Part shown: one piece after another, positions 2,642 to 26,443 of the stretch
Layout of the letters: every line of letters begins with the position of its first letter
Position numbering within the stretch: position 1 is the stretch's first letter
Assembly: GCA_022843095.1 (NCBI GenBank)
Contig: JALHOH010000002.1
Coordinates: forward strand, 1 to 32,000
Length of the DNA: 32,000 nt
From: Candidatus Saccharimonadota bacterium
GTDB taxonomy: Bacteria; Patescibacteriota; Patescibacteriia; 2-12-FULL-60-25
Direction: 5' to 3'
Translations under genes and position numbers: made by a program
The notes under the pieces: model-generated
What the model saw: the letters and a program-made list of their open reading frames with translations, nothing else
The model's database searches: none
Told to the model about the DNA's origin: nothing

Positions 2642-3793
2642 CTATCTCGTCGGGATCAGCATGAGCACTTGCTCGCGGATTTCCGTGAACATCATCACGG
2701 CATAGGCCTCCGGTCGAAAGCCCCACCGCGTCCGATACGGAGACGACTCGGACCGTGTCGCCTCGTCGCGAATGCACGCGTGCCAGTCCTCGATCACCTC
2801 GTCTGGCAACGAGCGGATCGCGCTCGGGGGCAGACGCACGAGATAGAGTCCGTCCCGATGGGCGAAGCCCTCGCCCACACGGAGCGCGAGGCGCGCAATG
2901 TCCGGACGTTCGACCGAGGCCTTGCTCATCGTGAGCGCGATCATCGGCGTTTTCCCAAGAAATCCTGCGCTCGCGACGTACTTGTTCCCGACCGTGACGC
3001 TTGCGATGTAGTGCGGGTCGCTCGCAGAGATGTTCACAAAGAGTCGCGGGTCTTCTGGACCGAGCTGCGACGCGACAACTGCTTCTCGCAACACATCGAG
3101 CGTGGTTTCGATCTGCTCGCGCGTCGAGCCAAGTCGACGCAGTCGCTTTCCGATCCGAACGAGCGTCGTGTGGTCGAGCGGGCCAAGCACTGCGAGCGCG
3201 GTGCTCGACTCGTCGATCGTTGGATCGGCGCGGACACATGGCCCAGCGGCCGGGAGCTGGACACGCTCGATTACGGCGTTTAGCTCGTCGCTCGCCGCCC
3301 TCGCTTGCGCGCCGCCAAGGGCATTGGCAAGCGCTCGTGCGGCAGAGACATCCACGAAGGCAGACGATTTCCATAGTGCTTCGAACCAGGCGGCGAGCTC
3401 AGTGATCGTCGCTGCGGTGTCGATGAGCACCGCCATCTCGGTCCGGCGCCCCAAGCCCGCGTTGGTCAGGTTCGCCGATCCAACGAGCGCCTCTTCCGTG
3501 CCGATCACGACCTTGGCGTGTACCCCGCGACAGTCCTGCACCCGCTCATGGTGTGCTTCAATGAAGTCCGCCGCTCTCTGCGCCTCGTACCCCTCCGCGC
3601 GCAGCCACTCCTGCACGTCCGTCACGAGCCGCCACGAACTCGCACGCGAGGTCACCTCGAGCAATCGCTTAACCGAGAGGTAGGGGCCGACGATGTCGAC
3701 CTTCCCTCCTCGCGTGATCTTCGCGATGGCTCGCGCGAACGGCGACGTTCGCGAAGGCGCATCGAGCGAGTGATACACGAGCTTCTCCGCCAC
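2642..3793 (-). CDS. PLD-superfamily (single HKD motif) nuclease-like protein with an unknown ~230-aa C-terminal domain
   Basis: The motif HAKVVIGTEEALVGSANLTNAGL fits HxK(x4)D/E(x6)GSxN of phospholipase D/Nuc-type enzymes. Only one HKD copy is present, as in Nuc, which dimerises. The overlapping 2019..3374(-) and 2669..3283(+) frames are Arg-rich shadows. Confidence 0.75.
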   Translation of the reverse strand: MAEKLVYHSLDAPSRTSPFARAIAKITRGGKVDIVGPYLSVKRLLEVTSRASSWRLVTDVQEWLRAEGYEAQRAADFIEAHHERVQDCRGVHAKVVIGTEEALVGSANLTNAGLGRRTEMAVLIDTAATITELAAWFEALWKSSAFVDVSAARALANALGGAQARAASDELNAVIERVQLPAAGPCVRADPTIDESSTALAVLGPLDHTTLVRIGKRLRRLGSTREQIETTLDVLREAVVASQLGPEDPRLFVNISASDPHYIASVTVGNKYVASAGFLGKTPMIALTMSKASVERPDIARLALRVGEGFAHRDGLYLVRLPPSAIRSLPDEVIEDWHACIRDEATRSESSPYRTRWGFRPEAYAVMMFTEIREQVLMLIPTR

Positions 3794-3981
3794 ACGCGGA
3801 GCATACGTCAGCGACCTGAAACAGTGCGCGTCAGCAAGCCGAGTCCTGCGTCGTCTCTGTGCCTGATCGCGTTGCTCCTGACGCTCGCATGGCGCTAGCG
3901 TTCAGGTGGTCACAGCGGGGGCCGCCATCGCCCTCGTCGAACTTGTCCCTCTCCCTGTCTGTTCACTTGGAGCTGTCCCGC

Positions 3982-4038
3982 ATGTCCAACCTGCCGAACG
4001 ACTTCGTCCTTCGATACGCCCGCCCGCCCGCGGAGAGC
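3982..4038 (+). pseudogene. displaced 5' fragment (19 codons, MSNLPNDFVLRYARPPAES) of the CBASS CD-NTase gene, cut off by the IS insertion
   Basis: The fragment ends exactly at the left target-site duplication copy. Deleting 4039..5621 joins it in frame to codon ACC at 5622 of the CD-NTase body. Confidence 0.65.
4031..4038. repeat. left copy of the 8-bp target-site duplication CGGAGAGC
   Basis: Identical octamer abuts the outer side of both IS termini (4031..4038 and 5614..5621). Confidence 0.8.
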
Positions 4039-5613
4039 GGGTGTGATTGCGGTTAGTCATGCGACGACCGGGACAGCAGATTGCTCACTGTGGATGAGGA
4101 GAAGTGTGTCGATGACGAGTTGCCAGCGACCGCTGCGAGCGGCGGCGCGAAGCCGAATGAAACGGGCTGCGTTCTTGTGCTTCCACCGCGTTCCACAGCG
4201 CTTCATTCGAACCTCGACCACGGTCTTGCAGGTTGCCTCCACCGGGCCGCTCCCAACTGGGCGTCCCTCGCGCCGCGCTTTTGCGTAGTCCAAACGCCCG
4301 GCCTCTCCGTGATTTCGTAGGTACGTGATGGCGTCGTGGACGGGGCGCTCCTTGCTTCCAGGCGGCTCTTCTCGACGCCATCGCGTGATGTGATCCAGCA
4401 GGATTTTCCACGCAGAACTGTCGTTCAACAGCCGCAGCCGCCAGTACCCAATCTCGCGCGCACCGCGGTCCTTGCCCCAGCGCGAGACCATTGCGCGACC
4501 CAGCTTTTCAAGAAGGTGCCAGAAGTCCACCAGCTTCTTCACGGCGGACGCGATGTTGTCCGCAGAAAACGCACGCTCTGCGGCGTTCCAGAACTCGTGC
4601 GCCCCGTCGCACACGACGCTCACCACGAGCTCTGGACGCTGCGCCAGCGCCGCCTTGCAGTCGTCTCGAAGCGCGTCACACAGCTCATCGATCGACTCGT
4701 TGGGCATGCGGGCGTAGCGGATGGTTCCCAGTGTTTTGCCTTGTGAATCGTGCCAGCTCATGGTTGCGCAGTACGCCATCTCGAACACGCGCTCGATCGG
4801 TCGCTTCGCCGCGTTCTTCTTCGGTCGCCCTGCAGGACGCTTGCGCGGATACTCGACCGGCAGGCTCACGCGATCGATCGACAGCACGATTCCTGCGGTC
4901 TTCTCGGGCACAGAGACGGCGCGAACGCACTGCTCTTCGACGGCCTCTTGATGCTCCATGTAGAGCTTTCCGATGGCCTGCGTTTGCTTCCAGAAGGACG
5001 AAGCTGCATAGGGCAGCAGTCGCAATTGCGAGGAAATTTCCTGCGCTTCTCGCTGTGGAACATGCTCGACGAGCATGGCCATCGCAGCGCTCGTCGCAGG
5101 GAGCCAGTGCTTGATCGCGCCGCATCGAGCGCTCACGGGGTCGTAGGTCTTGGCGTTGGGCAACCCATCGGGCGCGTAAATCGAGCGGACGACGGTGATG
5201 GGTCCCGAGCGAGAGAAGAGCGTGACGGGGCGGCGGCAGCGCACGCGCAGAGTGCGTCCGTCCTGTGTTTTCAGGGGCGAAGTGCGATCACACGCGGTCA
5301 CGATCGTGGTGAGGATCGCCCGCTCGAACGCAGCCGAGAGGTCGGCGACCAGCGATTCGACCGCGGGGAAGTAAAGGGGCTCGTCGCTGCGTGCGTGGCG
5401 GACCGCTTGGGCGATCAACGGAAGAACATCGGCGAGAACACCGAGAAGGGGCTCGACCTCTGAGTCGAGTTGAAGCATCGTAGGCATGGGGCATCCGTGC
5501 AGTGGTTGATGTGGTAATTGCCTGCTGCCACGGCTCTGCCCCGCTGTCGCGCACCTTCTCGCCGGCGTTTGTCAGCTCACGTCGGAGCTCCCGCACGATC
5601 TGCAATCACACCC
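4039..5613 (-). mobile_element. insertion sequence, ISKra4-like family, 1575 bp
   Basis: Terminal inverted repeats GGGTGTGATTGC (4039..4050) and GCAATCACACCC (5602..5613) are 12/12 identical, with about 16/19 identity when extended inward. They are flanked by the perfect 8-bp direct repeat CGGAGAGC. The element contains a single transposase ORF. Confidence 0.8.
4057..5487 (-). CDS. DDE transposase, ISKra4-like
   Basis: 476 aa. The C-terminal pattern VCDGAHEFWN...VDFWHLLEKL...YLRNHGEAGRLDYAKARREGRPVGSGPVEATCKTVVEVRMKRCGTRWKHKNAARFIRLRAAARSGRW matches, from memory, the conserved DG..W / DxxH..E / Y..N...M.Y / G.PIGSG.VES.CK / R.K.SGMRW / LR signature of ISKra4-family transposases. Confidence 0.85.
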   Translation of the reverse strand: MPTMLQLDSEVEPLLGVLADVLPLIAQAVRHARSDEPLYFPAVESLVADLSAAFERAILTTIVTACDRTSPLKTQDGRTLRVRCRRPVTLFSRSGPITVVRSIYAPDGLPNAKTYDPVSARCGAIKHWLPATSAAMAMLVEHVPQREAQEISSQLRLLPYAASSFWKQTQAIGKLYMEHQEAVEEQCVRAVSVPEKTAGIVLSIDRVSLPVEYPRKRPAGRPKKNAAKRPIERVFEMAYCATMSWHDSQGKTLGTIRYARMPNESIDELCDALRDDCKAALAQRPELVVSVVCDGAHEFWNAAERAFSADNIASAVKKLVDFWHLLEKLGRAMVSRWGKDRGAREIGYWRLRLLNDSSAWKILLDHITRWRREEPPGSKERPVHDAITYLRNHGEAGRLDYAKARREGRPVGSGPVEATCKTVVEVRMKRCGTRWKHKNAARFIRLRAAARSGRWQLVIDTLLLIHSEQSAVPVVA

Positions 5614-6446
5614 CGGAGAGCACCGTCGCCCGAGCCGTGTCCCTCCATCAAAACGTCCGAGCCGCGCTGGGCGAAGGCTACGCGACGCTCCTCCAGGGCA
5701 GCTACAAGAACGACACGTCGCTCTGGGACATGAATGACGTCGATCTTGTCGCGGTCTCGTACGGGCTCGTGAGCAACGCGTTTGGGCGGGTCCCGTCCGG
5801 GGGCACGACCGTCTCGTGGGACGAGATCTTCGCGCGCATCGAGCGCAAGCTGCAGGCGGACAGTCGGAATGCCGGGAAGTGGCAGCGGAAGGACAAGTGC
5901 ATCCAGTTGAACACGGGCGTCACGATCGACGTCGTTCCTGCGGTCTACGTCACGAGCCCCGAGAGCGACCCTGTCGCGATCTTCTCGTTTCGCGAAAGGC
6001 GGGAGCGCTGCAATTGGCCGCGCAACCACTACGAAGCAGGAGCGGAGAAGAGTCGCCGCACAGACGGCGCGTTCAAGCAGACGGTGCGTCTTTTCAAGGC
6101 GTGGCGACGTGCGGTCACGACGGACAGCAAGATGGCGCCCTCGTTCTACATCGAGTGCCTGCTCCATGCGGTGCCCGACGGATGCTTCTCGAACGTCGGT
6201 GCAGACGCCTTCGTCTCGGTCGGGCGCGAGATCGTTGCCTGGAACTACCACACGCGCCCCGTGCTTCGCCCCGGAGGAGGGGACAGCATCTTCACGAACA
6301 CCGAGTGGGACGCCCCACAATTCAAGTCCTTTCAGCAGAAGCTCGGTGAGGCGCTCGTGCACGCCGACTACGCCCGACGTGCCGCGAACGAGCAGCTCGC
6401 ACGGGGGGCGTGGATCCGCGCGTTCAACGGGCAGTCGCCGTCATGA
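5502..6446 (+). CDS. CBASS cyclic-oligonucleotide synthase (CD-NTase / SMODS-type nucleotidyltransferase); native 5' end displaced by the IS, and codons 1-37 of this ORF are IS-derived
   Basis: GSYKNDTSLWDMNDVDLV supplies the GS plus DxD motifs of the Pol-beta nucleotidyltransferase fold. A third acidic residue lies in GVTIDVVPA. The gene forms an operon with a 2TM/beta effector. The ORF opens at GTG 5502, inside the IS right end. Native sequence starts at 5614. Confidence 0.75.
   Translation: MVDVVIACCHGSAPLSRTFSPAFVSSRRSSRTICNHTPESTVARAVSLHQNVRAALGEGYATLLQGSYKNDTSLWDMNDVDLVAVSYGLVSNAFGRVPSGGTTVSWDEIFARIERKLQADSRNAGKWQRKDKCIQLNTGVTIDVVPAVYVTSPESDPVAIFSFRERRERCNWPRNHYEAGAEKSRRTDGAFKQTVRLFKAWRRAVTTDSKMAPSFYIECLLHAVPDGCFSNVGADAFVSVGREIVAWNYHTRPVLRPGGGDSIFTNTEWDAPQFKSFQQKLGEALVHADYARRAANEQLARGAWIRAFNGQSPS
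5614..5621. repeat. right copy of the 8-bp target-site duplication CGGAGAGC
   Basis: See the left copy at 4031..4038. Confidence 0.8.
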
Positions 6447-7099
6447 GCACGGGCATTCACCCGTATGCCCACGACAAGCAGGAAGAGGCGCAGCGGTGGC
6501 TCTTCGTTCCCGCGCTCGTGCTCGCGTTCGGTTTGGGGAAGATCTTGGAGGTGGTGCATGCGCCGTGGTGGATCGACACGCCCGCGCCCTTCGGGTTCCT
6601 CGCGGGCCTTGCGTGGTTCTTCAACAAGTGGGGCTGGCATGCGTTTCGATGGCTGCACGGCATCCCCGACCTGCGCGGCACGTACGAGCTGGAAATTCTC
6701 TCGTCGAACGATCAGCACGCGAAGCCCATCCAGGGGACGCTCACGATCGCGCAGGAGTGGACCCGCATCCTCGTGACCGTGAAGACCGCGACATCGAGCT
6801 CGTCGAGCATCGGGGCGTGGCTCACGGACGATCCAACGCAGGGCGCCGTGCTCACCTACGCGTACCGCAACGAGCCAGATCCCGCGGCGAAGAACGACCT
6901 CCACGCGCATGCGGGCACGGCGAAGATCACGTTCGCCGCCGACGGTACGGCGCGAGGTCGCTACTACAACGACCGCGATCGCCAGACGTTCGGGTCGCTG
7001 GCGCTCACAAAGCGCGTCGCAGCGAGAACGTCATCACAGCCCGCAGCCACAGGCGCGACGGCGCCGGCTTCGACTCCGACCGACGCGGATGGGGCTTGA
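6443..7099 (+). CDS. cap15: Cap15-like CBASS effector (two N-terminal TM helices plus a beta-strand-rich C-terminal domain)
   Basis: ATG 6443 overlaps the CD-NTase stop (ATGA, TGA at 6444..6446). Two hydrophobic helices are present (WLFVPALVLAFGLGKIL and PFGFLAGLAWFFNKWGW). They are followed by the beta-rich DLRGTYELEILS...GTLTIAQEWTRILVTVKTATSSSSSIGAWL...LTYAYRNEP...HAGTAKITF...GRYYNDRDRQTFGSLAL, which fits the S-2TMbeta/Cap15 pattern recalled from the literature. Confidence 0.65.
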   Translation: MSTGIHPYAHDKQEEAQRWLFVPALVLAFGLGKILEVVHAPWWIDTPAPFGFLAGLAWFFNKWGWHAFRWLHGIPDLRGTYELEILSSNDQHAKPIQGTLTIAQEWTRILVTVKTATSSSSSIGAWLTDDPTQGAVLTYAYRNEPDPAAKNDLHAHAGTAKITFAADGTARGRYYNDRDRQTFGSLALTKRVAARTSSQPAATGATAPASTPTDADGA

Positions 7100-7145
7100 G
7101 GATGGTTGCACACGGGCAGTTCATTCTGCGTCCGCGAGGGCCGTC

Positions 7146-8429
7146 ATGCTGACCATCGCCGAGACGACCGAAGGCGCACTCGTGCGGATCGCAGAGATCG
7201 CGGCCATCGTTCCCGCCCACGTCCGGCCTCGCGTGCGGTGCGTCCTTTGCGAGCATGCACTCGTGCCAAAGCTCGGCACAAAGCTCCGCCACCACTTCGC
7301 TCATCTCCCCGGCTCCAGCTGTCCGGCTGCTGGTGGCGAAGGTGAGGTCCATCTCGCCGCCAAGCTCCACATGACGCTTCTGCTCCGCGAGCTCATCGCC
7401 GCCCGACTGCACCTTCCGGCGCCAAGCGCGTGCGGTTTGTGCGGCGAACCGTACACGCAGGCGCTCCTCACATTCGAGAGCACGGATCAGGTTCAGATCG
7501 AACGCTCTGTCGGCAGCCGTCGTCCCGATCTCATCGTGCGTCGTGGAGATCGCGTGATCGCCGCGATCGAAATCGTCGTGAGCAACCCCTGCACCGACGA
7601 ACGATGGGCAGACCTCCTCTCGACGAATGCGGTTGTCGTCGAGGTACGTGGCGAAGATGTTCTCGCATTGCCGGACACGCAAACGTGGCTGGACGACCCC
7701 ATCGAATACTCGCGCGTGAGCCTCCTCCAGCAAGATCCTGCGTGCCCAAGCTGTCTCGCCGCGCTGGACGAAGAGCACCGTCGCCCACGAGCGGAAGCCA
7801 TCACGCGCTGTGCACTCGACGTGCGCTTTCCAGACGGCCGTCGCACACAGGATACCTTCGAGGTGTGGCGCGAATGGGACGGAACACGTTGGGTACGCGC
7901 GTTCATCCAGAGCGCGTTGCGCGGTCGGCTTTGGGAACTCGAAGGTACCTGCGACGACATCGAGGAGCTTCGCGTCCGCGGGCGGGAAGTGTTTCGCTCG
8001 TATCGAGCAGAGCTTGTGCGCGGCGCAGCAGCGTACAGTTGCGACACGTTTGCTGAAGATGCGCTGCCGGGCACGATTCTCGCGGAGCTTGCGTCGTCGT
8101 GGTGGTGGCAACCTGCGCGCACGCGGTGGGTGCAGGTCTACTCGTTCCAGGAGGCCGCCGCGCGACTGCAGATCCGGCGAACCACGTTCGGGCGCTGGGT
8201 GAAGGAGCGACGCGTTCGAGCGATCTACGTTCGGCGCGATCGCGATGCCCAGGAAGACACGCGCTGCTTCGATGCCGAGGATATCGACGAGCGCACGCGT
8301 CGGCTCGAGAATTGGCGAAGAACCGCGCCGACACTCACGAGCCAGCAGTTTTTCGCGCTGCGCGTAAGGAACACCATGGACGCAATCCGCGCAGGAGAGG
8401 CAGTCTGGGACGAAGAGCGCTCTGGTTGA
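7146..8429 (+). CDS. CoiA-like PD-(D/E)xK nuclease-fold protein with a C-terminal MerR/excisionase-type HTH
   Basis: The N-terminus reads CVLCEHALVPKLGTKLRHHFAH...C...GEGEVHLAAKLHM...IERSVGSRRPDLIVRRGDRVIAAIEIVVSNP. This matches the Zn-ribbon, HFAH, E..H..K and RRPD...E.xxS layout of the CoiA family. The C-terminal YSFQEAAARLQIRRTTFGRWVKERRVRA is HTH-like. The ORF is open from 6909, but that extension is Arg-rich and overlaps cap15, so ATG 7146 is preferred. Confidence 0.65.
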   Translation: MLTIAETTEGALVRIAEIAAIVPAHVRPRVRCVLCEHALVPKLGTKLRHHFAHLPGSSCPAAGGEGEVHLAAKLHMTLLLRELIAARLHLPAPSACGLCGEPYTQALLTFESTDQVQIERSVGSRRPDLIVRRGDRVIAAIEIVVSNPCTDERWADLLSTNAVVVEVRGEDVLALPDTQTWLDDPIEYSRVSLLQQDPACPSCLAALDEEHRRPRAEAITRCALDVRFPDGRRTQDTFEVWREWDGTRWVRAFIQSALRGRLWELEGTCDDIEELRVRGREVFRSYRAELVRGAAAYSCDTFAEDALPGTILAELASSWWWQPARTRWVQVYSFQEAAARLQIRRTTFGRWVKERRVRAIYVRRDRDAQEDTRCFDAEDIDERTRRLENWRRTAPTLTSQQFFALRVRNTMDAIRAGEAVWDEERSG

Positions 8430-8455
8430 TGGACAGAGACCGCTCACTCGCTGGT

Positions 8456-8812
8456 TCAGCGGTGTACGCCGCAGAAGCCGTAGTTTCCGGGAAGTGCGGA
8501 GTGCATACACGGTGAGCCATTCTGCAATGCGCTCTTGCACCGCGCGCCAACGCGTCCGCCACCACCGCCCGCGCGCTCGTTTCGAGGTGGAAGTCGCCCG
8601 GTCTTCCGCTCATAGCTCTCGATCAAGCGCTTCTCTTCCTTGAACGCGGCGGACTCCGAGCTGTGCACTTGGTAGTCGAAGTGTGTGAAGTGGCTGTACC
8701 CACGCGCACGAAGATACTGCTTGATCGCTTCGGGACTGCCCTCTGAAACTGTGCCTTTGCCGATGCGGACGATCCTATTCGCGCGAAACAATCGATACGA
8801 CACAAACGCCAT
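8456..8812 (-). CDS. GIY-YIG-like nuclease domain protein with a Cys/His-rich tail
   Basis: MAFVSYRLFRANRIVRIGKGT...YLRARGYSHF...EEKRLIESYERKTGRLPPRNE follows the GIY...YIG...R...E...N spacing. The tail is CKSALQNGSPCMHSALPGNYGFCGVHR. Start chosen at the internal Met (codon 19 of ORF 8456..8866). Confidence 0.5.
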   Translation of the reverse strand: MAFVSYRLFRANRIVRIGKGTVSEGSPEAIKQYLRARGYSHFTHFDYQVHSSESAAFKEEKRLIESYERKTGRLPPRNERAGGGGGRVGARCKSALQNGSPCMHSALPGNYGFCGVHR

Positions 8813-8919
8813 GGGTCGCTCCAGTTGATGGGGGGATGAACATTTTCCGTGTGTCGCGAGATACACAAGCGCAACCCCCCGAGTCGAAGCGGCCAGCTCA
8901 TCCCGGCCTCACGCCGCTT

Positions 8920-8939
8920 CGCCCAAGTTCCCTTCGACG
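8920..8939. repeat. left arm of a perfect 20-bp inverted repeat (CGCCCAAGTTCCCTTCGACG)
   Basis: Its reverse complement CGTCGAAGGGAACTTGGGCG occurs at 9984..10003. The two arms bracket the catalytic core of the tyrosine recombinase gene. Confidence 0.9.
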
Positions 8940-9012
8940 AAGCGCACGGCTCCTGTCGCCCTCGTCAACGGCCTCGCCCGCCAGGTACCCTGCGTGGTGA
9001 ACCGTCGCGCAT

Positions 9013-10113
9013 ATGCGTGAACACCTCGACGACTTTCGCCGCTTTCTCTCCGCCAGAAACCACGCCCCACGAACCCAATCCACGTACGCACGGATCGTGG
9101 AGACGTTCTTCGCGTTCCGCGATCTGCCTGTGAAAACAGAGCCAAGTCTCGCAGACGTCGAAGCCTTCCTCGTACGCCCAAAGCAGACCGGCGCCGTGCG
9201 AGCCCCGCGAGCCCGAAACCTCGACCTTGCCGCATTGCGCGTGTTTTTCCGCTTCGCCGTAGAGCACGGCCTCCTCGCGCGGGACCCCACGAAAGGCATC
9301 CGGCTCTTGCGTGAGCCCGCACACGAGCCCGCTGTTCCAACGCTCGGAGAGATCCGCGCGATGTTCTCCGCGGCAGCCCAAGAGCCGGACCCCGTCGCGC
9401 GGAGCCGCAGCATCGCGCTCCTCGCGGTTTTGTCGCAGACCGCACTGCGTGTGCACGAGGTGGTTGGGCTCGACGTCTCGCAACTCGAGCCGGTCAGCGC
9501 GTCGCTCCTCGACGTGCACGGGAAAGGCGCGACCCGCCACAGCGTCGCGCTGAACCCCGATGCCCTCGCGTTGCTCACAGCGTGGGTCGAGACCCGCAGC
9601 GCGATCGCCAAAGCAGGGGAGACCGCGCTCTTCGTCGGGCTGCAGACGGGCACGCGGCTCTCGGTCCGCGCCGTGCAGCACGTGATCGCAGTCCTGCGCG
9701 CAAAGGCAGGCATCACGCGCAAAGTGAGCCCGCACAGCTTCCGTCACGCAGCCGCGACACACATGCTGACCGCCGGCGCCGACGTAGCGGTTGTCGCGGG
9801 CGCGCTCAGACACGCCTCCGTCACGACGACCATGCAGTACCTGCACCTCGTGGACACGCACCGCAGGCGCGCGATCGCGACGCTTGCCGCCGCAATTCCA
9901 CCAGAGCTGCGCGCGTCATCCGCCGAAGCCTCCGTCCCACCGACGCGCGAACAGCCAGTCACTTTCCGGCCCGAACGGACTTGCGTCGAAGGGAACTTGG
10001 GCGCAACGTCGAGCGGTCCATTCGGGCTGGTTTTCCCCACGCAGATGTCGCGTTCGGCGAGGTCTGCGTGTCCCGCGATCGCCGCGCGCTGCGCCACTTC
10101 GAGCTGCGCGTAG
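9013..10113 (+). CDS. tyrosine site-specific recombinase (XerC/XerD / phage-integrase family)
   Basis: The N-terminal SAM-like core-binding region reads FRRFLSARNHAPRTQSTYARIVETFF. The catalytic region reads ALRVHEVVGLDV...GKGATRH...HSFRHAAATHMLTAGADVAVVAGALRHASVTTTMQYLHL, giving the R..H-x-x-R..H..Y signature. About 65 extra C-terminal codons run through the right IR arm. Confidence 0.88.
   Translation: MREHLDDFRRFLSARNHAPRTQSTYARIVETFFAFRDLPVKTEPSLADVEAFLVRPKQTGAVRAPRARNLDLAALRVFFRFAVEHGLLARDPTKGIRLLREPAHEPAVPTLGEIRAMFSAAAQEPDPVARSRSIALLAVLSQTALRVHEVVGLDVSQLEPVSASLLDVHGKGATRHSVALNPDALALLTAWVETRSAIAKAGETALFVGLQTGTRLSVRAVQHVIAVLRAKAGITRKVSPHSFRHAAATHMLTAGADVAVVAGALRHASVTTTMQYLHLVDTHRRRAIATLAAAIPPELRASSAEASVPPTREQPVTFRPERTCVEGNLGATSSGPFGLVFPTQMSRSARSACPAIAARCATSSCA
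9984..10003. repeat. right arm of the perfect 20-bp inverted repeat
   Basis: CGTCGAAGGGAACTTGGGCG is the exact reverse complement of 8920..8939. Confidence 0.9.
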
Positions 10114-11972: not shown

Positions 11973-12320
11973 CGACTCAACTTACGTCTCGGTCCCATGC
12001 GAAACAGTCGGTAAAGAGGGCGCGAACCTCGATCCATCCCGGAGCTCCAGCAGAAACACGCATGAACTGCGCAAAAAGGCAGTTATCTAGAGCCGCCGAG
12101 TTGCATGACGATATATGGCTATGGCACTATGCGAATAGTGATGTTATGCGCTTCGTCCGCTATGCGCGGTGGACAGAATCGCGTATCGTTGTGCCCTTTT
12201 CAAAGGAATCGCTGGAATCTTACATCATACTACTTGTGCTTGCTCGGTTCGTTCCTACGAATCAAGCGAACACTATCGCCCTCTAGGTTGTGACCGACTG
12301 AAGAACAAGGAGAAGCTCAA

Positions 12321-12509
12321 ATGTCAGGTCGACCTCCTATCATTTTCAAACGCGAATCGCTGGTGAGCATGATGCAGCCGAAGCAGCCAGAAGCTGCCAA
12401 GGCCCCATCTTCGCCATGTTCACCAACTAACCCGATCGCGGCTCCGAGCAGCACGCTGGTGTCGCCAGTGATTCCATCCGCGGGAGATCCTCCTTCCGAC
12501 TCGAAGTGA
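12321..12509 (+). CDS. small protein sORF-A (62 aa), paralog of 17834..18025
   Basis: AAGGAG sits 8 nt upstream of the ATG. The N-terminal 20 aa (MSGRPPIIFKRESLVSMMQP) are 15/20 identical to sORF-B, with 9 synonymous codon differences among the conserved residues. The shared C-terminal pattern is VSP..P.SA..P.SDSK. Confidence 0.75.
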   Translation: MSGRPPIIFKRESLVSMMQPKQPEAAKAPSSPCSPTNPIAAPSSTLVSPVIPSAGDPPSDSK

Positions 12510-16158: not shown

Positions 16159-16570
16159 ACATTTTTCCGATTCGCAGCGTATTAAAACGTATTGCGACAA
16201 CAATTTGCTTGACGATTCGGGTCTTGATGGTAAAAATGTAATCACCCTGACCATGTTCGCGAAAATGGCGTAATACCGCGTGATTGTTCGCGATTAATAG
16301 GGGAGCAGGGCCTTTGGGAAGGAGGTGTGTATATGTTGATCGGAGTGGATGGAGTGTTCGGCATCAGTGCAGACTGACTCCGGGCCCGCTGTCGCGTTCG
16401 TCGACACTTCTGTATCTCTACAATGCGCTCGCGCCCGTCATCTCGGTCTTGAGGTGCGGGTGCGTTTTAATTTGCGGGAATCAGGTATCTTCATCGAAAA
16501 GAGCCGTTTTTGTATAGCGCGTATCGTGAGCGTGGATGGGTGTGATCGCGATATGTATTTCCGGAATTTT

Positions 16571-17705: not shown

Positions 17706-17833
17706 AATAATTATTTGGGTTTAACCCCGAATCTTTTTTATGTATCCAGAATTCAGCTATTGCGCAATAAGTCACAGTATGCGATTCTAAATTTTAGGCG
17801 CAGATCGTATTCGCATTCCAAGGAGTACATCAA

Positions 17834-18025
17834 ATGTCGAATCGACCCCGGATTATCTTCCGACATAGTTCCTTGGTCAGTATGATGCAGCCAGCATCAG
17901 TGAAGGCGCCGAAATCCGCCGAGTCTTCTTCGGAAGGTTCGCTCACGGATTCAGGTGACGCGAAAGTCTCTCCGGATGCTCCCGCTTCAGCCGAGATCCC
18001 TTCTTCTGACTCGAAGGCGCGTTAA
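17834..18025 (+). CDS. small protein sORF-B (63 aa), paralog of 12321..12509
   Basis: AAGGAG sits 8 nt upstream of the ATG, the same spacing as sORF-A. N-terminus MSNRPRIIFRHSSLVSMMQP and C-terminus VSPDAPASAEIPSSDSKAR. Confidence 0.75.
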   Translation: MSNRPRIIFRHSSLVSMMQPASVKAPKSAESSSEGSLTDSGDAKVSPDAPASAEIPSSDSKAR

Positions 18026-22657: not shown

Positions 22658-23536
22658 ATGAAGGTTCCTGTCTATCATGGTCCAGATGGAGTCGTCGTGG
22701 TCGTGCGGTGGCGTGGAGAGGATGCTCCGCGGTTTATCCGAGGGTTGCGCGAGGTGATCGAAGCGCGCGAGTCTGCTCTGGATGAGGCGCCGAAGAAGCC
22801 GAAAAAGGCGCATACGGTGCCGCCGGCGACGACGGCCGAAGCGGTCGCGCGGGAAGAGGTCGGGATCGTCATCCCGAACACGGTGCCGCCCCCGGCTCCG
22901 CCTTCCGTGCATCCGCCGCGTTTGAACGTGCACCCCGCGATTCCGGATCTGTCCGATCCGTACGCGTTCGAGGTGCTTCTCGACAAGGTGCCGCAGATCG
23001 TGGATCCGACGGAGGTGGTGCCGCCGGTGCCTGTGCGCGCTCGGCGTCGTGCGCCGGTCCGCCGGACGTATCCGGATCGCGATAAGATGTTGAGAGTTCG
23101 GTGGCCGCTTCTGGTCGAAGGTCGCGTCCTCGCGGATTTCATGCGCTACAAGACGGACAATCGTTCCGGGTACAGTCAGCACATGCGCAAGGAGGCGAAA
23201 GCGCTGCTTGCGCGAGAGAAGCACCGGAAGTACAAGGGGATCAATCGGTTGGTCCGCGACGAGGTGCGCGACGGACTCGTGCGCGAGATCAACAACGACT
23301 GGCTGACCCATCCGTTGGCCTTTTGGAAGGATGAGCCGACGCCGAAGGGGTATCTCATCCGCGTCGTGCCGTGTCCGAACCAGCATCGTTTCCTGTTCTT
23401 TCTGCTGGATTTCGCGAACCGAGTGATCGTCGGGGTACATACGCCGGGATCGCTGAATCGGTCGCGAGAGGGTCGTGGAGCACGACGCCGCGAGTACCTG
23501 AACGACCCCGGCTGCCGCCGTCGGTCGCGTCGCTAG
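22658..23536 (+). CDS. hypothetical protein with a Pro-rich central region
   Basis: GGAGGAG lies 7 nt upstream of ATG 22658. The gene is followed by a terminator. The opposite-strand ORF 22616..23566 is an Arg/His-rich shadow. Confidence 0.55.
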   Translation: MKVPVYHGPDGVVVVVRWRGEDAPRFIRGLREVIEARESALDEAPKKPKKAHTVPPATTAEAVAREEVGIVIPNTVPPPAPPSVHPPRLNVHPAIPDLSDPYAFEVLLDKVPQIVDPTEVVPPVPVRARRRAPVRRTYPDRDKMLRVRWPLLVEGRVLADFMRYKTDNRSGYSQHMRKEAKALLAREKHRKYKGINRLVRDEVRDGLVREINNDWLTHPLAFWKDEPTPKGYLIRVVPCPNQHRFLFFLLDFANRVIVGVHTPGSLNRSREGRGARRREYLNDPGCRRRSRR

Positions 23537-23554
23537 ACACCCGTGACTCCGGGT

Positions 23555-23583
23555 CACGCATTCCATCAGGGTGCGTGTTTTTT
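23555..23583 (+). terminator. rho-independent terminator (CACGCA-loop-TGCGTG plus T7)
   Basis: Read directly downstream of the stop at 23536. Confidence 0.6.
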
Positions 23584-23625
23584 GTTGACCCTTTTCGGCA
23601 TTCGCCGCATCATACCCCCATTCGT

Positions 23626-24918
23626 ATGCAGCACTTCATTTCGCAGTTTCCTGGACTGGTCGGACAAACGGTTACGATCAAGGGATGGGCATATAACGTG
23701 CGATCCAGTGGATCGATCGCGTTTTTACAGATCCGCGATGGGTCTGGGTTCACACAAGCCGTCGTCGCCAAAACCGCCGTGGACGAGGCGTCGTGGTCCG
23801 CCGCAACGGACGCAACGATTGAATCCGCCGTGGAGATTACCGGCACCGTGAGCGCGCATCCAAAACAGGCGGGGGTCTTTGAGGTACAAGCAACGGCAGT
23901 CGTATTGATTCAAAAGGCGGAGGAATATCCGATTGGGAAAAAAGAGCATGGACCGGATTTTTTGCTGGATCAGCGTCATCTGTGGTTGCGCGCCCCAACG
24001 CAGTGGGCCATTCAAAAAGTGCGCAACGAAGTGATCTACGCGACCTACGATTGGATGCGTGACCATGGCTTTACCAAAATCGATTCGCCGATTTTTACGC
24101 CAAGCGCCTGTGAAGGAACCACGGAATTATTCGAGATCGATTATTTTGGCGAGCGCAAAGCCTACCTTTCGCAATCCGGGCAGTTGTATTTGGAGGCGGC
24201 GATTGGATCGGTGGGGCGGTGTTTTGACTTTGGTCCCGTGTTTCGTGCGGAGAAGTCGAAAACGCGTCGCCATTTGATTGAGTTCTGGATGATGGATGCG
24301 GAAGCGGCGTTTGTGGAGCACAAAGAAAACTTGGAAATCCAGGAACAATTGGTGTGTTGTATTGTGGAGCGCGTGCTCAAAAACTGCCAGGCGGAATTGA
24401 AGATTTTGGAACGCAACCAGGAGCCATTGAAGCAGGTCCAGGCACCGTTCCCGCGGTTAACGCACGCCGAAGCGATCGCGAAACTGCGGACGCTCGGCTC
24501 GGACATCGGCGAAATGGATGACCTTGGCGCAGACGATGAGACGTTGCTGACACAGCAATATGATCGTCCGATTTTCATCGAAAAGTATCCGGCCGCGGTG
24601 AAAGCGTTTTACATGAAGCGTGATCCAAACGATCCGACGCGCGTGTTGAATGCGGATTTGCTGGCGCCGGAGGGGTATGGGGAGATCATCGGCGGATCGC
24701 AACGTGAAGAGAACTACGACGCGCTGTTGGAGCGTATTCGCGAGCACAAATTGCCGGAAGAGGCGTTCAAGTGGTATCTCGATCTGCGTAAATACGGTGG
24801 CGTACCTCATTCCGGATTTGGCTATGGTCTGGAACGCATCGTGACCTGGATTTGCGGTATCCACCATGTGCGCGAAACCATTCCGTTTCCACGTTTGCTC
24901 AATCGATTGGAACCATAA
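23626..24918 (+). CDS. asnS: asparagine--tRNA ligase
   Basis: 430 aa. OB-fold VTIKGWAYNVRSSGSIAFLQIRDGSGFTQAVV, class II motifs FRAEKSKTRRHLIEFWMMDAE and GGSQRE...GFGYGLERIVTWICG, and a C-terminal FPR...L.P typical of AsnRS. Confidence 0.92.
   Translation: MQHFISQFPGLVGQTVTIKGWAYNVRSSGSIAFLQIRDGSGFTQAVVAKTAVDEASWSAATDATIESAVEITGTVSAHPKQAGVFEVQATAVVLIQKAEEYPIGKKEHGPDFLLDQRHLWLRAPTQWAIQKVRNEVIYATYDWMRDHGFTKIDSPIFTPSACEGTTELFEIDYFGERKAYLSQSGQLYLEAAIGSVGRCFDFGPVFRAEKSKTRRHLIEFWMMDAEAAFVEHKENLEIQEQLVCCIVERVLKNCQAELKILERNQEPLKQVQAPFPRLTHAEAIAKLRTLGSDIGEMDDLGADDETLLTQQYDRPIFIEKYPAAVKAFYMKRDPNDPTRVLNADLLAPEGYGEIIGGSQREENYDALLERIREHKLPEEAFKWYLDLRKYGGVPHSGFGYGLERIVTWICGIHHVRETIPFPRLLNRLEP
24886..24918. 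repeat. 33-bp direct repeat copy 1 (last 10 codons plus stop of asnS)
   Basis: TTTCCACGTTTGCTCAATCGATTGGAACCATAA is repeated exactly at 26411..26443. Confidence 0.95.
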
Positions 24919-25010: not shown

Positions 25011-25142
25011 TTGTCGTTCGGACTACGGTTCTGAACCTTACATTTGAAGCGCTTGTTTACGCAGAGAAACGAACGGAACGGTAAGCCCGGGGTCCCGCAA
25101 TTCTGCTGGGATGAGGGGCAAGCCAAACCAACGAGGTGTGTC

Positions 25143-26318
25143 ATGGCGAAGCGAAACGTTACCGAGATCGAGACCGGCGCAGGGTTCTTCATGGGGTTCG
25201 TAAACGCGATGATGGACGTGGTCCGTGAGAAGGCGATTCCCTTCGCGGCCGTCTACCGGCTCGCGACCGCGGGCGGCCGGAAGACGCTCGGTTCGATGAT
25301 CGACCTGGCCTACGCCGACTGGCAGGCCGAGCAGCCGAAGCCCGTCGAGCAGCAGCCGCAGGACGGTCACCCGTACCAGGGCGGCGCGCAGACGAACGGT
25401 TCGCCGTTTTCGGCCCCGATCACCTACGTCCAGCCCGAGTTCGAGGAGTTGAAGCGCCGGTTCCCGGCCTACGTCAACCCCGACTACAAGGGCAAGCGGT
25501 TCGATCCGATCGAGCGCTGCAAGGCCGTCTCTAAGGAGAACCGCGTGGTCGCCTTCGAGTACGTCCACATGGACCGCGCCGCGTCGACGGACGAGGTGCT
25601 CGCCGAGATGGATAACCGCGGCCTCCGGCCCGCGCTCTACGAGGAGCTCCTCGGTTTCGCCGAGAAGTACCCCGACGAGCAGCGGAAGTATCCGATCGTC
25701 GCTCTCGGATCCGAGGCGGACGTGCACGGTAACCGCCACGTCGCGTTTCTGTGGAACGATGACCTTGGCCGGCGCCTTGGCCTGGGCTGGATTGGCCTTG
25801 GTTGGGGAGTCTACTACTGGTTCCTCGCCGTCCCGGTCGGCTCGGCGGTCGAGCGACCGCTCGTCGACGGCGAGTACCGCGTGCCGGTCAGCTACAGCAT
25901 GCCGCGCGACAAGGCGACGCTCGAGAGCGAGTTCTCGAAGGACGGCGTGTCCGATCTGTTCACCGGCAACTACGAGTGGCAGCCCCACTCGTCGTGCTCC
26001 GAGATCGACCAGACGCCGGGCGAGCGCATCATGCTCGTCAAGTACTTCGGGCGCGACACGACGAGCGAGGCGAATATCGCCGAGATGGACAAGCTGGGCT
26101 ACCGCCCCGCGACCCACCTCGAGGCGTACGCGTTCGCCAAGGCCAACCCCGAGCTGCAACGTCAGTTCTGGATCGTGGCTCTCGGCTCGTCCGCGATGCA
26201 TGGCGATGACCGGCGCGTCGCGGTATTGGACAGCGGTTCCGACGGGCGCATACTCGGCAGCAACTGGTTCGACATCGGGTGGAGTTCCGAGGGCCGATTC
26301 CTGTTCGTGCGCAAGTAG
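25143..26318 (+). CDS. hypothetical protein with an internally duplicated ~100-aa domain (GC-rich island cargo)
   Basis: The two repeats share AEMD..G.RPA...E...FA...P..QR...IVALGS....G.R.VA.L......R.LG..W...GW.....FL.V. The opposite-strand ORF 25038..26417 is an Arg/Ala/Val shadow. Confidence 0.7.
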   Translation: MAKRNVTEIETGAGFFMGFVNAMMDVVREKAIPFAAVYRLATAGGRKTLGSMIDLAYADWQAEQPKPVEQQPQDGHPYQGGAQTNGSPFSAPITYVQPEFEELKRRFPAYVNPDYKGKRFDPIERCKAVSKENRVVAFEYVHMDRAASTDEVLAEMDNRGLRPALYEELLGFAEKYPDEQRKYPIVALGSEADVHGNRHVAFLWNDDLGRRLGLGWIGLGWGVYYWFLAVPVGSAVERPLVDGEYRVPVSYSMPRDKATLESEFSKDGVSDLFTGNYEWQPHSSCSEIDQTPGERIMLVKYFGRDTTSEANIAEMDKLGYRPATHLEAYAFAKANPELQRQFWIVALGSSAMHGDDRRVAVLDSGSDGRILGSNWFDIGWSSEGRFLFVRK

Positions 26319-26410
26319 CATTGAACCCTCTGCGCTACGGACCCTGTCCGGTGCACGAAATCCCAAAAATGGATTTTCGTGCGCTGGGCGGGGTCGTTTT
26401 TTTGATAAAA

Positions 26411-26443
26411 TTTCCACGTTTGCTCAATCGATTGGAACCATAA
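26411..26443. repeat. 33-bp direct repeat copy 2 (orphan copy of the asnS 3' end)
   Basis: Exact copy of 24886..24918, followed by its own terminator. Confidence 0.95.

What the first reader, a model, noticed from the sequence alone, without database searches (positions are those of the whole stretch)
4031..5621. ISKra4-like IS inserted at codon 19 of the CBASS cyclase, with a precise TSD, an exact in-frame reconstruction and a possible IS-derived replacement N-terminus
Terminal inverted repeats GGGTGTGATTGC/GCAATCACACCC (4039..4050, 5602..5613) are flanked by identical CGGAGAGC octamers. Removing 4039..5621 fuses ATG 3982 (MSNLPNDFVLRYARPPAES) in frame to TVARAVSLHQNV..., giving a 293-codon gene of typical CD-NTase size. 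The perfect TSD and IRs suggest a recent event.

The IS right end contributes an in-frame GTG at 5502 and 37 codons that read straight into the cyclase. A chimeric, possibly IS-promoter-driven cyclase is therefore conceivable, rather than simple inactivation. IS-mediated silencing or rewiring of an abortive-infection system is biologically meaningful because such systems carry autoimmunity costs.
Basis: seen in the sequence. Interest (0 to 1): 0.7.

Follow-up and report, generated by a model that had tools for sequence, protein, structure and literature searches.

The report
Jumping gene splits a CBASS cyclase
A 1.6-kb insertion sequence (a small mobile "jumping gene") has recently landed inside the signal-making enzyme of a two-gene bacterial anti-phage system and almost certainly switched it off, which is a real but ordinary kind of event.

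Summary
A 1575-bp IS lies at 4039-5613. It has perfect 12-bp termini (19 nt at 84%) and is flanked by an exact 8-bp duplication, CGGAGAGC. It sits after codon 19 of a CdnE-like CD-NTase that is followed by an intact Cap15 effector gene.

Three uninterrupted alleles from other samples (L001, L008, L002; 95%, 93% and 85% nt identity) carry a single CGGAGAGC at that site and encode 293-aa proteins. Independent copies of the IS, and metagenome unitigs that break exactly at GGGTGTGAT…ATCACACCC, confirm the ends.

The 476-aa transposase is intact, with an invariant D205/D294/E417 triad. Its only family match is ISKra4 (NF033572, E 6e-42), which falls below NCBI's cut-off, so it is a divergent, uncatalogued member.

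The cyclase remnant shows no decay (pN/pS 0.15, the same as intact versus intact), so the event is recent.

The "replacement N-terminus" idea is not supported:
- All three frames leaving that IS end are open for 35-46 codons.
- There is no promoter consensus and no Shine-Dalgarno motif.
- The lost residues form a conserved, confidently modelled helix.

Verdict: an ordinary IS knock-out of a type I CBASS. Interest is low.

The parts
3982..4038 (+). 5' fragment of the CD-NTase gene (codons 1-19, MSNLPNDFVLRYARPPAES). As it stands it reads into the IS and stops at 4054-4056, giving a 24-aa peptide.
   Evidence: 18 of 19 residues are identical to the N-terminus of the intact homologue P0001.
4031..4038 (.). 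Left copy of the 8-bp target-site duplication CGGAGAGC.
   Evidence: It is single-copy in the empty-site alleles L001, L002 and L008.
4039..5613 (-). 1575-bp insertion sequence, a divergent member of the ISKra4 / p-MULT 4 family. The transposase is on the minus strand.
   Evidence: The related full-length copy L004 (87.7% nt) aligns 1-1575, and unitig L014 is exactly 1575 bp from GGGTGTGATTGC to GCAATCACACCC.
4039..4057 (.). Terminal inverted repeat at the transposase-distal end of the IS.
   Evidence: I23: 19 nt, 84% complementary, first 12 perfect. The end is conserved in L003, L004, L005/6, L007, L011, L013 and L014.
4057..5487 (-). Transposase gene: 476 aa, intact, with a D205/D294/E417 triad.
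5595..5613 (.). Terminal inverted repeat at the transposase-proximal end of the IS.
5614..5621 (.). Right copy of the 8-bp target-site duplication CGGAGAGC.
5502..5621 (+). In-frame open stretch running out of the IS end from GTG 5502 (also GTG 5511). This is the hypothetical foreign N-terminus, judged a chance feature.
   Evidence: all three outward frames are open for 35-46 codons, and there is no SD-like motif; no promoter consensus.
5622..6446 (+). 3' part of the CD-NTase gene (codons 20-293 plus stop). It carries the catalytic G45-S46 and D58/D60/D122 residues and has no frameshift or stop.
6443..7099 (+). cap15 effector gene (two TM helices plus a cyclic-dinucleotide-receptor beta-barrel). 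It is intact, and its ATG overlaps the cyclase stop (ATGA).
   Evidence: PF18153, E 5.8e-31; PF23471. (PADLOC 2TM effector, E 4.6e-70). (96% identical to the L001 Cap15).
3794..3981 (+). Intergenic region upstream of the cyclase, the presumed native CBASS promoter region, with GGAG 11-14 nt before ATG 3982.
   Evidence: Inferred from gene layout. The simple scan found no promoter consensus here.

Best explanation
A two-gene type I CBASS operon (a CdnE-like cyclase plus the Cap15 membrane effector) in a Myxococcota genome has been knocked out by a recent transposition.

The element is an autonomous 1575-bp DDE insertion sequence of the Mutator-like ISKra4 / p-MULT 4 family. It inserted after codon 19 of the cyclase and duplicated 8 bp of target, CGGAGAGC.

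The native start now yields a 24-aa peptide that terminates inside the IS. The remaining 274 codons have lost their start codon and ribosome-binding site. They lie 1.6 kb from their promoter, behind untranslated DNA that is antisense to the transposase gene.

No cyclic-nucleotide signal is therefore made (inferred). Cap15 is translationally coupled to the cyclase and, without its ligand, is silent or harmless (inferred).

The IS, its ends, the duplication and the pre-insertion allele are shown. Loss of function and polarity on cap15 are inferred.
For: Anatomy: perfect 12-bp termini within a 19-nt IR, an exact 8-bp duplication, and a 1575-bp element.

Empty sites:
- L001 (95.4% nt), L008 (92.8%) and L002 (84.9%) read straight through with one CGGAGAGC and encode 293-aa cyclases followed by cap15.

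IS identity:
- The only NCBIfam hit is ISKra4 (E 6.1e-42).
- tblastn finds PGAP-annotated 'ISKra4 family transposase' genes.
- D205, D294 and E417 are invariant in 70 homologues and conserved in two annotated ISKra4 transposases.
- The AF2 model (pLDDT 91.5) places them on strand 1, just after strand 4, and on a later helix of a beta1-2-3-alpha-beta4-alpha-beta5 unit.
- GGG…CCC ends and an 8-bp duplication fit the published family features: IR 18-39 bp, terminal C, direct repeats of 8-9 bp (PMC3942029).

Ends confirmed independently:
- L004 aligns 1-1575.
- Unitigs L014 (1575 bp), L011 (1576 bp) and L013 start or stop exactly at the termini.
- Defective copies L003, L005/6 and L007 share the end.

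Cyclase identity:
- PADLOC cyclase models down to E 2.6e-26.
- AF2 pLDDT 91; the best PDB matches are CdnE enzymes (6E0K, E 2e-16, 291 of 293 columns).

Recency:
- 3 lineage-unique substitutions, against 2-12 in intact relatives.
- pN/pS 0.15 versus L001, equal to 0.149 for intact versus intact.
- Transposase and cap15 are intact.
Against: - No expression or activity data exist, so loss of function is inferred from gene structure.
- No intrinsic terminator is predicted on the + strand inside the IS, so read-through RNA could reach the 3' part. In-frame GTGs at 5502, 5511 and 5637 could in principle allow some translation.
- None of the other copies recovered shows a clean duplication. The 8-bp length therefore rests on this one insertion plus the three empty sites.
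- Whether the insertion is fixed or polymorphic in the source population is unknown, because no reads are available.
Confidence: 0.86

Rival explanations
1. Rewiring rather than silencing. The IS end supplies a start codon (GTG 5502 or 5511) and 38 foreign residues. Outward or read-through transcription then produces an active chimeric cyclase under new control.
For: The frame is open from 5484 and has two in-frame GTGs. All catalytic residues (G45, S46, D58, D60, D122) lie downstream of the junction. No + strand terminator is predicted in the IS. The cyclase remnant is undecayed.
Against: - All three frames leaving this IS end are open for 35-46 codons, so an in-frame fusion is expected by chance.
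- No sigma-70-type promoter is found in 3700-7200.
- No SD-like motif precedes GTG 5502 or 5511, unlike GGAG before the native ATG. This is weak evidence, since the transposase and cap15 starts also lack a clear SD.
- The transposase promoter points the other way.
- The replaced segment contains helix 6-13 at pLDDT about 94 and residues conserved across 73 homologues down to 25% identity (Y12 and P16 at 90% or more).
- An undecayed remnant is equally explained by recency.
Confidence: 0.04
2. Reversible off-switch. The insertion is one state of a phase-variable locus. Precise excision between the two 8-bp duplication copies restores the 293-codon gene, as described for IS256 in the staphylococcal ica operon (own knowledge). 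The population then keeps CBASS-ON and CBASS-OFF cells.
For: Perfect duplication copies and an exactly restorable ORF. The IS belongs to the same Mutator-like superfamily as IS256, whose members use circular intermediates (PMC3942029). Nothing has decayed.
Against: No read-level evidence for mixed filled and empty sites. The empty sites found are from other samples and differ by 5-15% in sequence, so they are different strains, not revertants. Precise excision of such ISs is rare. Every recent IS insertion looks like this.
Confidence: 0.07
3. Partial function by internal restart. Translation begins at GTG 5637 (codon 25) or later, giving an N-terminally truncated cyclase with residual activity.
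For: GTG at codon 25 is in frame, and the catalytic residues are downstream.
Against: The truncation would remove helix 6-13 and a third of the long helix 18-38 that leads into the G45-S46 strand. There is no SD-like motif. All 76 homologues except two fragments keep the full N-terminus.
Confidence: 0.02
4. Assembly artefact: a repeat-induced chimeric join placed an IS contig inside the cyclase gene.
For: Relatives of this IS are multi-copy and break assemblies at their ends (L011, L013, L014). The contig L004 has unrelated flanks and no duplication.
Against: A misjoin would not create an exact 8-bp duplication of target sequence on both sides while keeping both flanks collinear and in frame with the empty-site alleles.
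Confidence: 0.01

Closest known systems
ISKra4 family of insertion sequences (p-MULT 4 Mutator-like DDE transposases; Guerillot et al. 2014, PMC3942029)
   Same: - A single transposase ORF of about 440-480 aa with a DDE triad.
- Element length about 1.5 kb, with GGG…CCC termini and imperfect IRs.
- 8-9-bp target duplication.
- The only IS-family profile matched.
   Different: - The score is below the curated family cut-off (144 versus 205 bits).
- Only 23-28% identical to annotated members.
- The duplication is 8 bp, not the 9 bp listed for ISKra4-group elements.
- One ORF, not the two-ORF frameshift layout of the ISMich2 group.
- Inserted inside a coding region with no promoter nearby, unlike the promoter-proximal targeting of some ISKra4-group members.
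- Not placed in any subgroup here.
Type I CBASS with a CdnE-type CD-NTase and a Cap15 effector (Cap15: Duncan-Lowey et al. 2021, own knowledge; RmCdnE structure PDB 6E0K)
   Same: - Two overlapping genes, cyclase then Cap15.
- The Cap15 TM and beta-barrel receptor domains are present.
- The cyclase model aligns over 291 of 293 columns with RmCdnE.
- The G-S and D-x-D…D catalytic residues are invariant.
   Different: - The cyclase is only about 26% identical to RmCdnE.
- It belongs to a Myxococcota-centred subfamily that falls below NCBIfam's CBASS cut-offs.
- Here the cyclase is split by the IS. The nucleotide product is unknown.
IS256 insertion and excision in the Staphylococcus epidermidis ica operon (phase-variable biofilm; own knowledge)
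   Same: An IS of the Mutator-like superfamily with an 8-bp duplication interrupts a costly, dispensable operon. The gene is exactly restorable.
   Different: Reversibility is documented for ica and untested here. The family is different (p-MULT 1 versus p-MULT 4).
Pseudogenised or IS-disrupted defence systems in general (R-M and CRISPR-Cas pseudogenes, reviewed in Rocha & Bikard 2022, PMC8791490)
   Same: Loss of a costly defence system by simple mutation. It fits the rapid gain-and-loss dynamics of defence islands.
   Different: That review does not describe a CBASS cyclase split by an ISKra4-family element. My two literature searches found no such case either, but this is a difference of instance, not of kind.

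Membership tests
ISKra4 family IS (p-MULT 4) | Transposase homologous to the family profile (NCBIfam NF033572) | tested here: inconclusive
   It is the only family hit, at E 6.1e-42 and covering 394 of 422 profile positions. The score is 144.2 bits against a curated cut-off of 205. Identity to PGAP-annotated ISKra4 transposases is 23-28%.
ISKra4 family IS (p-MULT 4) | DDE catalytic triad on an RNase-H-like core | tested here: met
   D205, D294 and E417 are invariant in 70 homologues and aligned in two annotated ISKra4 transposases. The AF2 topology is beta(199-214)-beta-beta-alpha-beta(288-293)-alpha-beta, with E417 on helix 414-428. Foldseek gave only weak, non-significant RNase-H-fold hits such as Mos1 and retroviral integrase cores.
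ISKra4 family IS (p-MULT 4) | Terminal inverted repeats of 18-39 bp ending in C (GGG…CCC in the ISKra4 group) | tested here: met
   The IR is 19 nt at 84%, with the first 12 perfect, and the ends are GGG…CCC.
ISKra4 family IS (p-MULT 4) | Target-site duplication of 8 or 9 bp | tested here: met
   The 8-bp CGGAGAGC is present twice here and once in three empty-site alleles. Examples from the ISKra4 group proper list 9 bp.
ISKra4 family IS (p-MULT 4) | Placement in a subgroup (ISKra4, ISMich2 or ISAzba1) and naming by ISfinder BLAST or phylogeny | not testable with these tools
   ISfinder is not available. The single-ORF layout argues against ISMich2 (two ORFs with a frameshift), and the 8-bp duplication argues against ISAzba1 (no duplication).
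ISKra4 group (subset with promoter targeting) | Insertion 13-17 bp upstream of a sigma-A promoter | tested here: not met
   The insertion is 57 nt inside a coding sequence, and no promoter-like site lies on either side. This is a trait of some members only, not a family requirement.
CBASS, type I | CD-NTase with the conserved G-S … D-x-D … D active site and a CD-NTase fold | tested here: met
   G45, S46, D58, D60 and D122 are invariant in 73 sequences. Twenty-two PADLOC cyclase models hit. The precomputed Pfam annotation of the homologues is PF26305. Foldseek's top hits are CdnE structures, E 2e-16. The hits fall below NCBIfam's CBASS cut-offs.
CBASS, type I | Adjacent Cap effector gene in the same operon | tested here: met
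   Cap15 at 6443-7099 overlaps the cyclase stop. Pfam PF18153 at E 5.8e-31; PADLOC 2TM effector at E 4.6e-70.
CBASS, type I | No Cap2/Cap3 or HORMA/TRIP13 ancillary genes | tested here: met
   The neighbouring ORFs are a PLD-like nuclease, a CoiA-like/HTH protein and a tyrosine recombinase. None hits CBASS ancillary models. The same two-gene layout is seen in L001 and L002.
CBASS, type I | Cyclic-nucleotide synthesis and phage defence | not testable with these tools
   This needs biochemistry and phage assays.

The most novel reading that the evidence does not exclude
The insertion is not a plain knock-out. One version: read-through or outward transcription, with initiation at GTG 5502/5511, makes a 314-aa cyclase whose conserved N-terminal helix is swapped for 38 IS-encoded residues, changing how the CBASS sensor is regulated. 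Another version: precise excision between the 8-bp repeats lets the IS act as a reversible ON/OFF switch for an abortive-infection system.
Probability: 0.05. Interest if true: 0.55.

Novelty: new member of a known kind. Interest (0 to 1): 0.2.

Why it matters
This is a clean, fully documented example of a defence system lost by transposition: filled site, three empty sites, intact IS, undecayed target. It fits the accepted picture of fast turnover of costly abortive-infection systems.

It also defines the exact ends, length and target duplication of an uncatalogued, apparently multi-copy ISKra4-family element from Myxococcota. That helps IS annotation and explains contig breaks in soil and sediment metagenomes.

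It opens no new question. It would become interesting only if the chimera were expressed and active, or if the insertion proved reversible.

Tried and rejected
- Exact-sequence look-ups of the window's transposase and Cap15 found nothing on record. The source contig and identical IS copies are therefore not in the collection, and no population-level comparison was possible.
- Pfam and PHROGs give no hit for the transposase. A PDB sequence search with the family profile gives nothing. A Foldseek search of the good AF2 model gives no significant match, only weak RNase-H-fold hits.
- I looked for target duplications around the related IS copies L003, L004, L005/6 and L007 and found none. These copies are defective or sit on short, probably chimeric contigs, so I could not derive a target preference or confirm 8 bp independently.
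- The sigma-70 promoter scan of 3700-7200 found no sites, including the native upstream region. It therefore cannot discriminate strongly, and Myxococcota promoters may differ.
- A test for relaxed selection on the cyclase remnant (unique substitutions, pN/pS) found none.
- Literature searches for a described IS-split CBASS cyclase found none. The top hit was a CBASS carried on a transposon, not one disrupted by it.
- No second copy of the IS exists in the window. The one-mismatch 12-mer at 16538 is a lone match.
Full report
**Observation**

The region was read directly and checked by script.
- CGGAGAGC occurs at 4031-4038 and at 5614-5621.
- GGGTGTGATTGC at 4039-4050 is the exact reverse complement of 5602-5613.
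- The element between the repeats is 1575 bp.
- The repeat finder extends the inverted repeat to 19 nt at 84% (4039-4057 / 5595-5613).
- The 12-mer with up to one mismatch occurs three times in the window, against 0.14 expected. Two of the three are the IS ends.
- Removing 4039-5621 joins ATG 3982 in frame to 5622-6446, giving 293 codons.

**What the interrupted gene is**

The reconstructed protein hits 22 PADLOC oligonucleotide-cyclase models, the best at E 2.6e-26. It hits NCBIfam CBASS cyclase models only weakly, below their cut-offs.

It has 76 homologues, nearly all 285-298 aa, annotated PF26305 (CD_NTase_C). An AlphaFold model built on 73 sequences has pLDDT 91. Its best PDB matches are CdnE enzymes: Rhodothermus marinus CdnE 6E0K at E 2e-16, with 291 aligned columns. 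G45, S46, D58, D60 and D122 are invariant.

The next gene, 6443-7099, overlaps the cyclase stop (ATGA). It is Cap15: PF18153 at E 5.8e-31, the PF23471 TM helices, and a PADLOC 2TM effector at E 4.6e-70.

No Cap2/3 or HORMA/TRIP13 genes are nearby. This is therefore a two-gene type I CBASS. Named relatives come from Myxococcales, Polyangia and Sorangium.

**Comparative proof of the insertion**

- The closest homologue, P0001, is 293 aa and 96% identical over the full length. Its N-terminus, MSNLPNDFVLRYARPPSES, matches the 57-nt upstream fragment at 18 of 19 residues.
- Its contig L001 aligns to window 3692-4038 (92%) and to 5611-7111 (95.4%). The site reads …CCCTCGGAGAGCACCGTCGCCC… with one CGGAGAGC.
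- A degenerate left-flank pattern scanned across metagenome contigs found L008, a third uninterrupted allele at 92.8%.
- L002, from a Myxococcales MAG, is a more distant empty site at 85%.

**What the inserted element is**

ORF 4057-5487 on the minus strand encodes a 476-aa protein. Its only NCBIfam match is the ISKra4 family transposase NF033572: E 6.1e-42, profile positions 29-422 of 422, but 144 bits against a cut-off of 205. It has no Pfam or PHROGs hit.

tblastn against plasmids finds only genes annotated 'ISKra4 family transposase', at 23-28% identity.

More than 850 homologues exist. Most sit on contigs of 1.5-1.9 kb, the usual signature of a multi-copy repeat.

D205, D294 and E417 are invariant in 70 homologues and aligned in two annotated ISKra4 transposases. 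In the AlphaFold model (pLDDT 91.5) they lie on strand 1, just after strand 4, and on a later helix of an RNase-H-like unit. Foldseek gave no significant PDB match; the weak hits were Mos1, integrase cores and RAG1.

Guerillot et al. 2014 define this group as p-MULT 4. It has IRs of 18-39 bp ending in C and direct repeats of 8-9 bp. ISKra4-group examples end in …CCC with 9-bp repeats (PMC3942029).

The element meets these features with an 8-bp duplication. I file it as a divergent, uncatalogued ISKra4-family member with the subgroup unassigned.

**Ends confirmed independently**

- A related full-length copy, L004 (87.7% nt), aligns 1-1575.
- Unitig L014 is exactly 1575 bp, from GGGTGTGATTGC to GCAATCACACCC.
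- L011 is 1576 bp, and L013 begins at the terminus.
- Defective copies L003, L005/6 and L007 share the end.
- None of these shows a clean duplication.

**Age of the insertion**

- The window's cyclase has 3 substitutions at positions invariant in its 7 closest relatives. Intact alleles have 2-12.
- pN/pS is 0.15 against L001 and 0.149 for L001 against L002.
- The transposase, the IRs, the duplication and cap15 (96% to L001) are all intact.

The insertion is recent relative to the roughly 5% divergence between strains.

**The chimera hypothesis**

GTG 5502 (and 5511) is in frame with the cyclase. However:
- All three frames leaving this IS end are open for 35-46 codons, so any insertion here would give a fusion ORF.
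- No sigma-70-like promoter is found in 3700-7200.
- The native ATG has GGAG upstream and GTG 5502 has nothing comparable. This is weak evidence, because the transposase and cap15 starts lack a clear SD too.
- The transposase is transcribed away from the remnant. A driving promoter would therefore have to sit antisense inside the transposase coding region.
- The chimera would replace residues 1-17. These include helix 6-13 (pLDDT about 94) and Y12 and P16, conserved in at least 90% of 73 homologues.

I rate an active chimera at about 4%. Read-through from the native promoter is not excluded, since no + strand terminator is predicted. But 1.45 kb of untranslated RNA would be prone to Rho-dependent polarity (inference from established knowledge).

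**Mechanism**

Shown: transposition with an 8-bp duplication after codon 19, and the existence of the pre-insertion allele.

Inferred:
- The cyclase is truncated to a 24-aa peptide.
- No signal is synthesised.
- Cap15 is unliganded and probably under-expressed.
- The system is OFF.

Reversal by precise excision between the duplication copies is possible in principle, by analogy with IS256 in ica (own knowledge), but it is untested.

**Novelty**

Defence-system pseudogenes are well known (PMC8791490). I found no report of an IS-split CBASS cyclase, but that is a new instance, not a new kind. Interest is low, about 0.2.

Noticed in passing
window 8907-10016 (IRs 8907-8939 and 9984-10016); L008 353-1462; L001 2592-2750: A 1.1-kb segment is bounded by 33-nt inverted repeats with the core GCCCAAGTTCCCTTCGACG. 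It carries most of a XerC/D-like tyrosine recombinase gene (9013-10113, +). Its orientation in L001 and L008 is opposite to that in the window, and the breakpoints fall in the repeat core. The recombinase C-terminal tail differs between the two orientations (366 aa here, 333 aa in L008). It looks like a self-encoded invertible segment, Hin-like in logic but using a tyrosine recombinase, placed right next to the CBASS operon.
   Followed up: partly
window 7112-8906: About 1.8 kb lies between the cap15 stop and the recombinase repeat. It is absent from L001 and L008, which have only 13 bp there (GCCGAGATGCCCG). It encodes a roughly 427-aa protein starting at ATG 7146. That protein has a CoiA-like N-terminal zinc-finger motif (Pfam CoiA_N at threshold), a PD…E-type nuclease-like stretch that I saw only by eye, and a sub-threshold C-terminal HTH_17 match. 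No flanking IR or duplication was seen. It may be cargo exchanged at the recombinase site.
   Followed up: partly
window 24886-24918 and 26411-26443: A perfect 33-nt direct repeat flanks a 1.49-kb segment that is richer in GC than its surroundings. The segment carries a 459-aa ORF (25038-26417, minus strand) with no NCBIfam or PHROGs hit. The first repeat copy is the last 33 nt, including the stop, of ORF 23371-24918. This looks like an element integrated at a gene's 3' end that regenerates that end (att-like).
   Followed up: no
window ~12000: GC content drops sharply from about 0.67 (9-12 kb) to about 0.55 (12-32 kb), with a strongly positive GC skew from 18 kb on. The CBASS, IS and recombinase part and the rest of the window differ in composition, which suggests an island boundary or a mosaic.
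   Followed up: no
window 2642-3793 (-): A PLD-family nuclease-like gene is transcribed divergently from the CBASS operon. It has weak DrmC, DpdK and NgoFVII-like hits, and its 5' part is shared with L008. It may be another defence gene in the same island.
   Followed up: no
L003 6027-6951; L006 2873-4107: Relatives of the IS occur as decayed copies. L003 has a 5'-truncated copy that abuts a 138-aa Ser/Thr kinase fragment. L005/L006 have a copy with a 326-bp internal deletion. The family therefore leaves dead copies in Myxococcota genomes as well as active-looking ones.
   Followed up: partly
window 12306-12379 and 17819-17892: A 74-nt direct repeat at 70% identity covers the ribosome-binding sites and first codons of two genes 5.5 kb apart, which are probably paralogues.
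   Followed up: no
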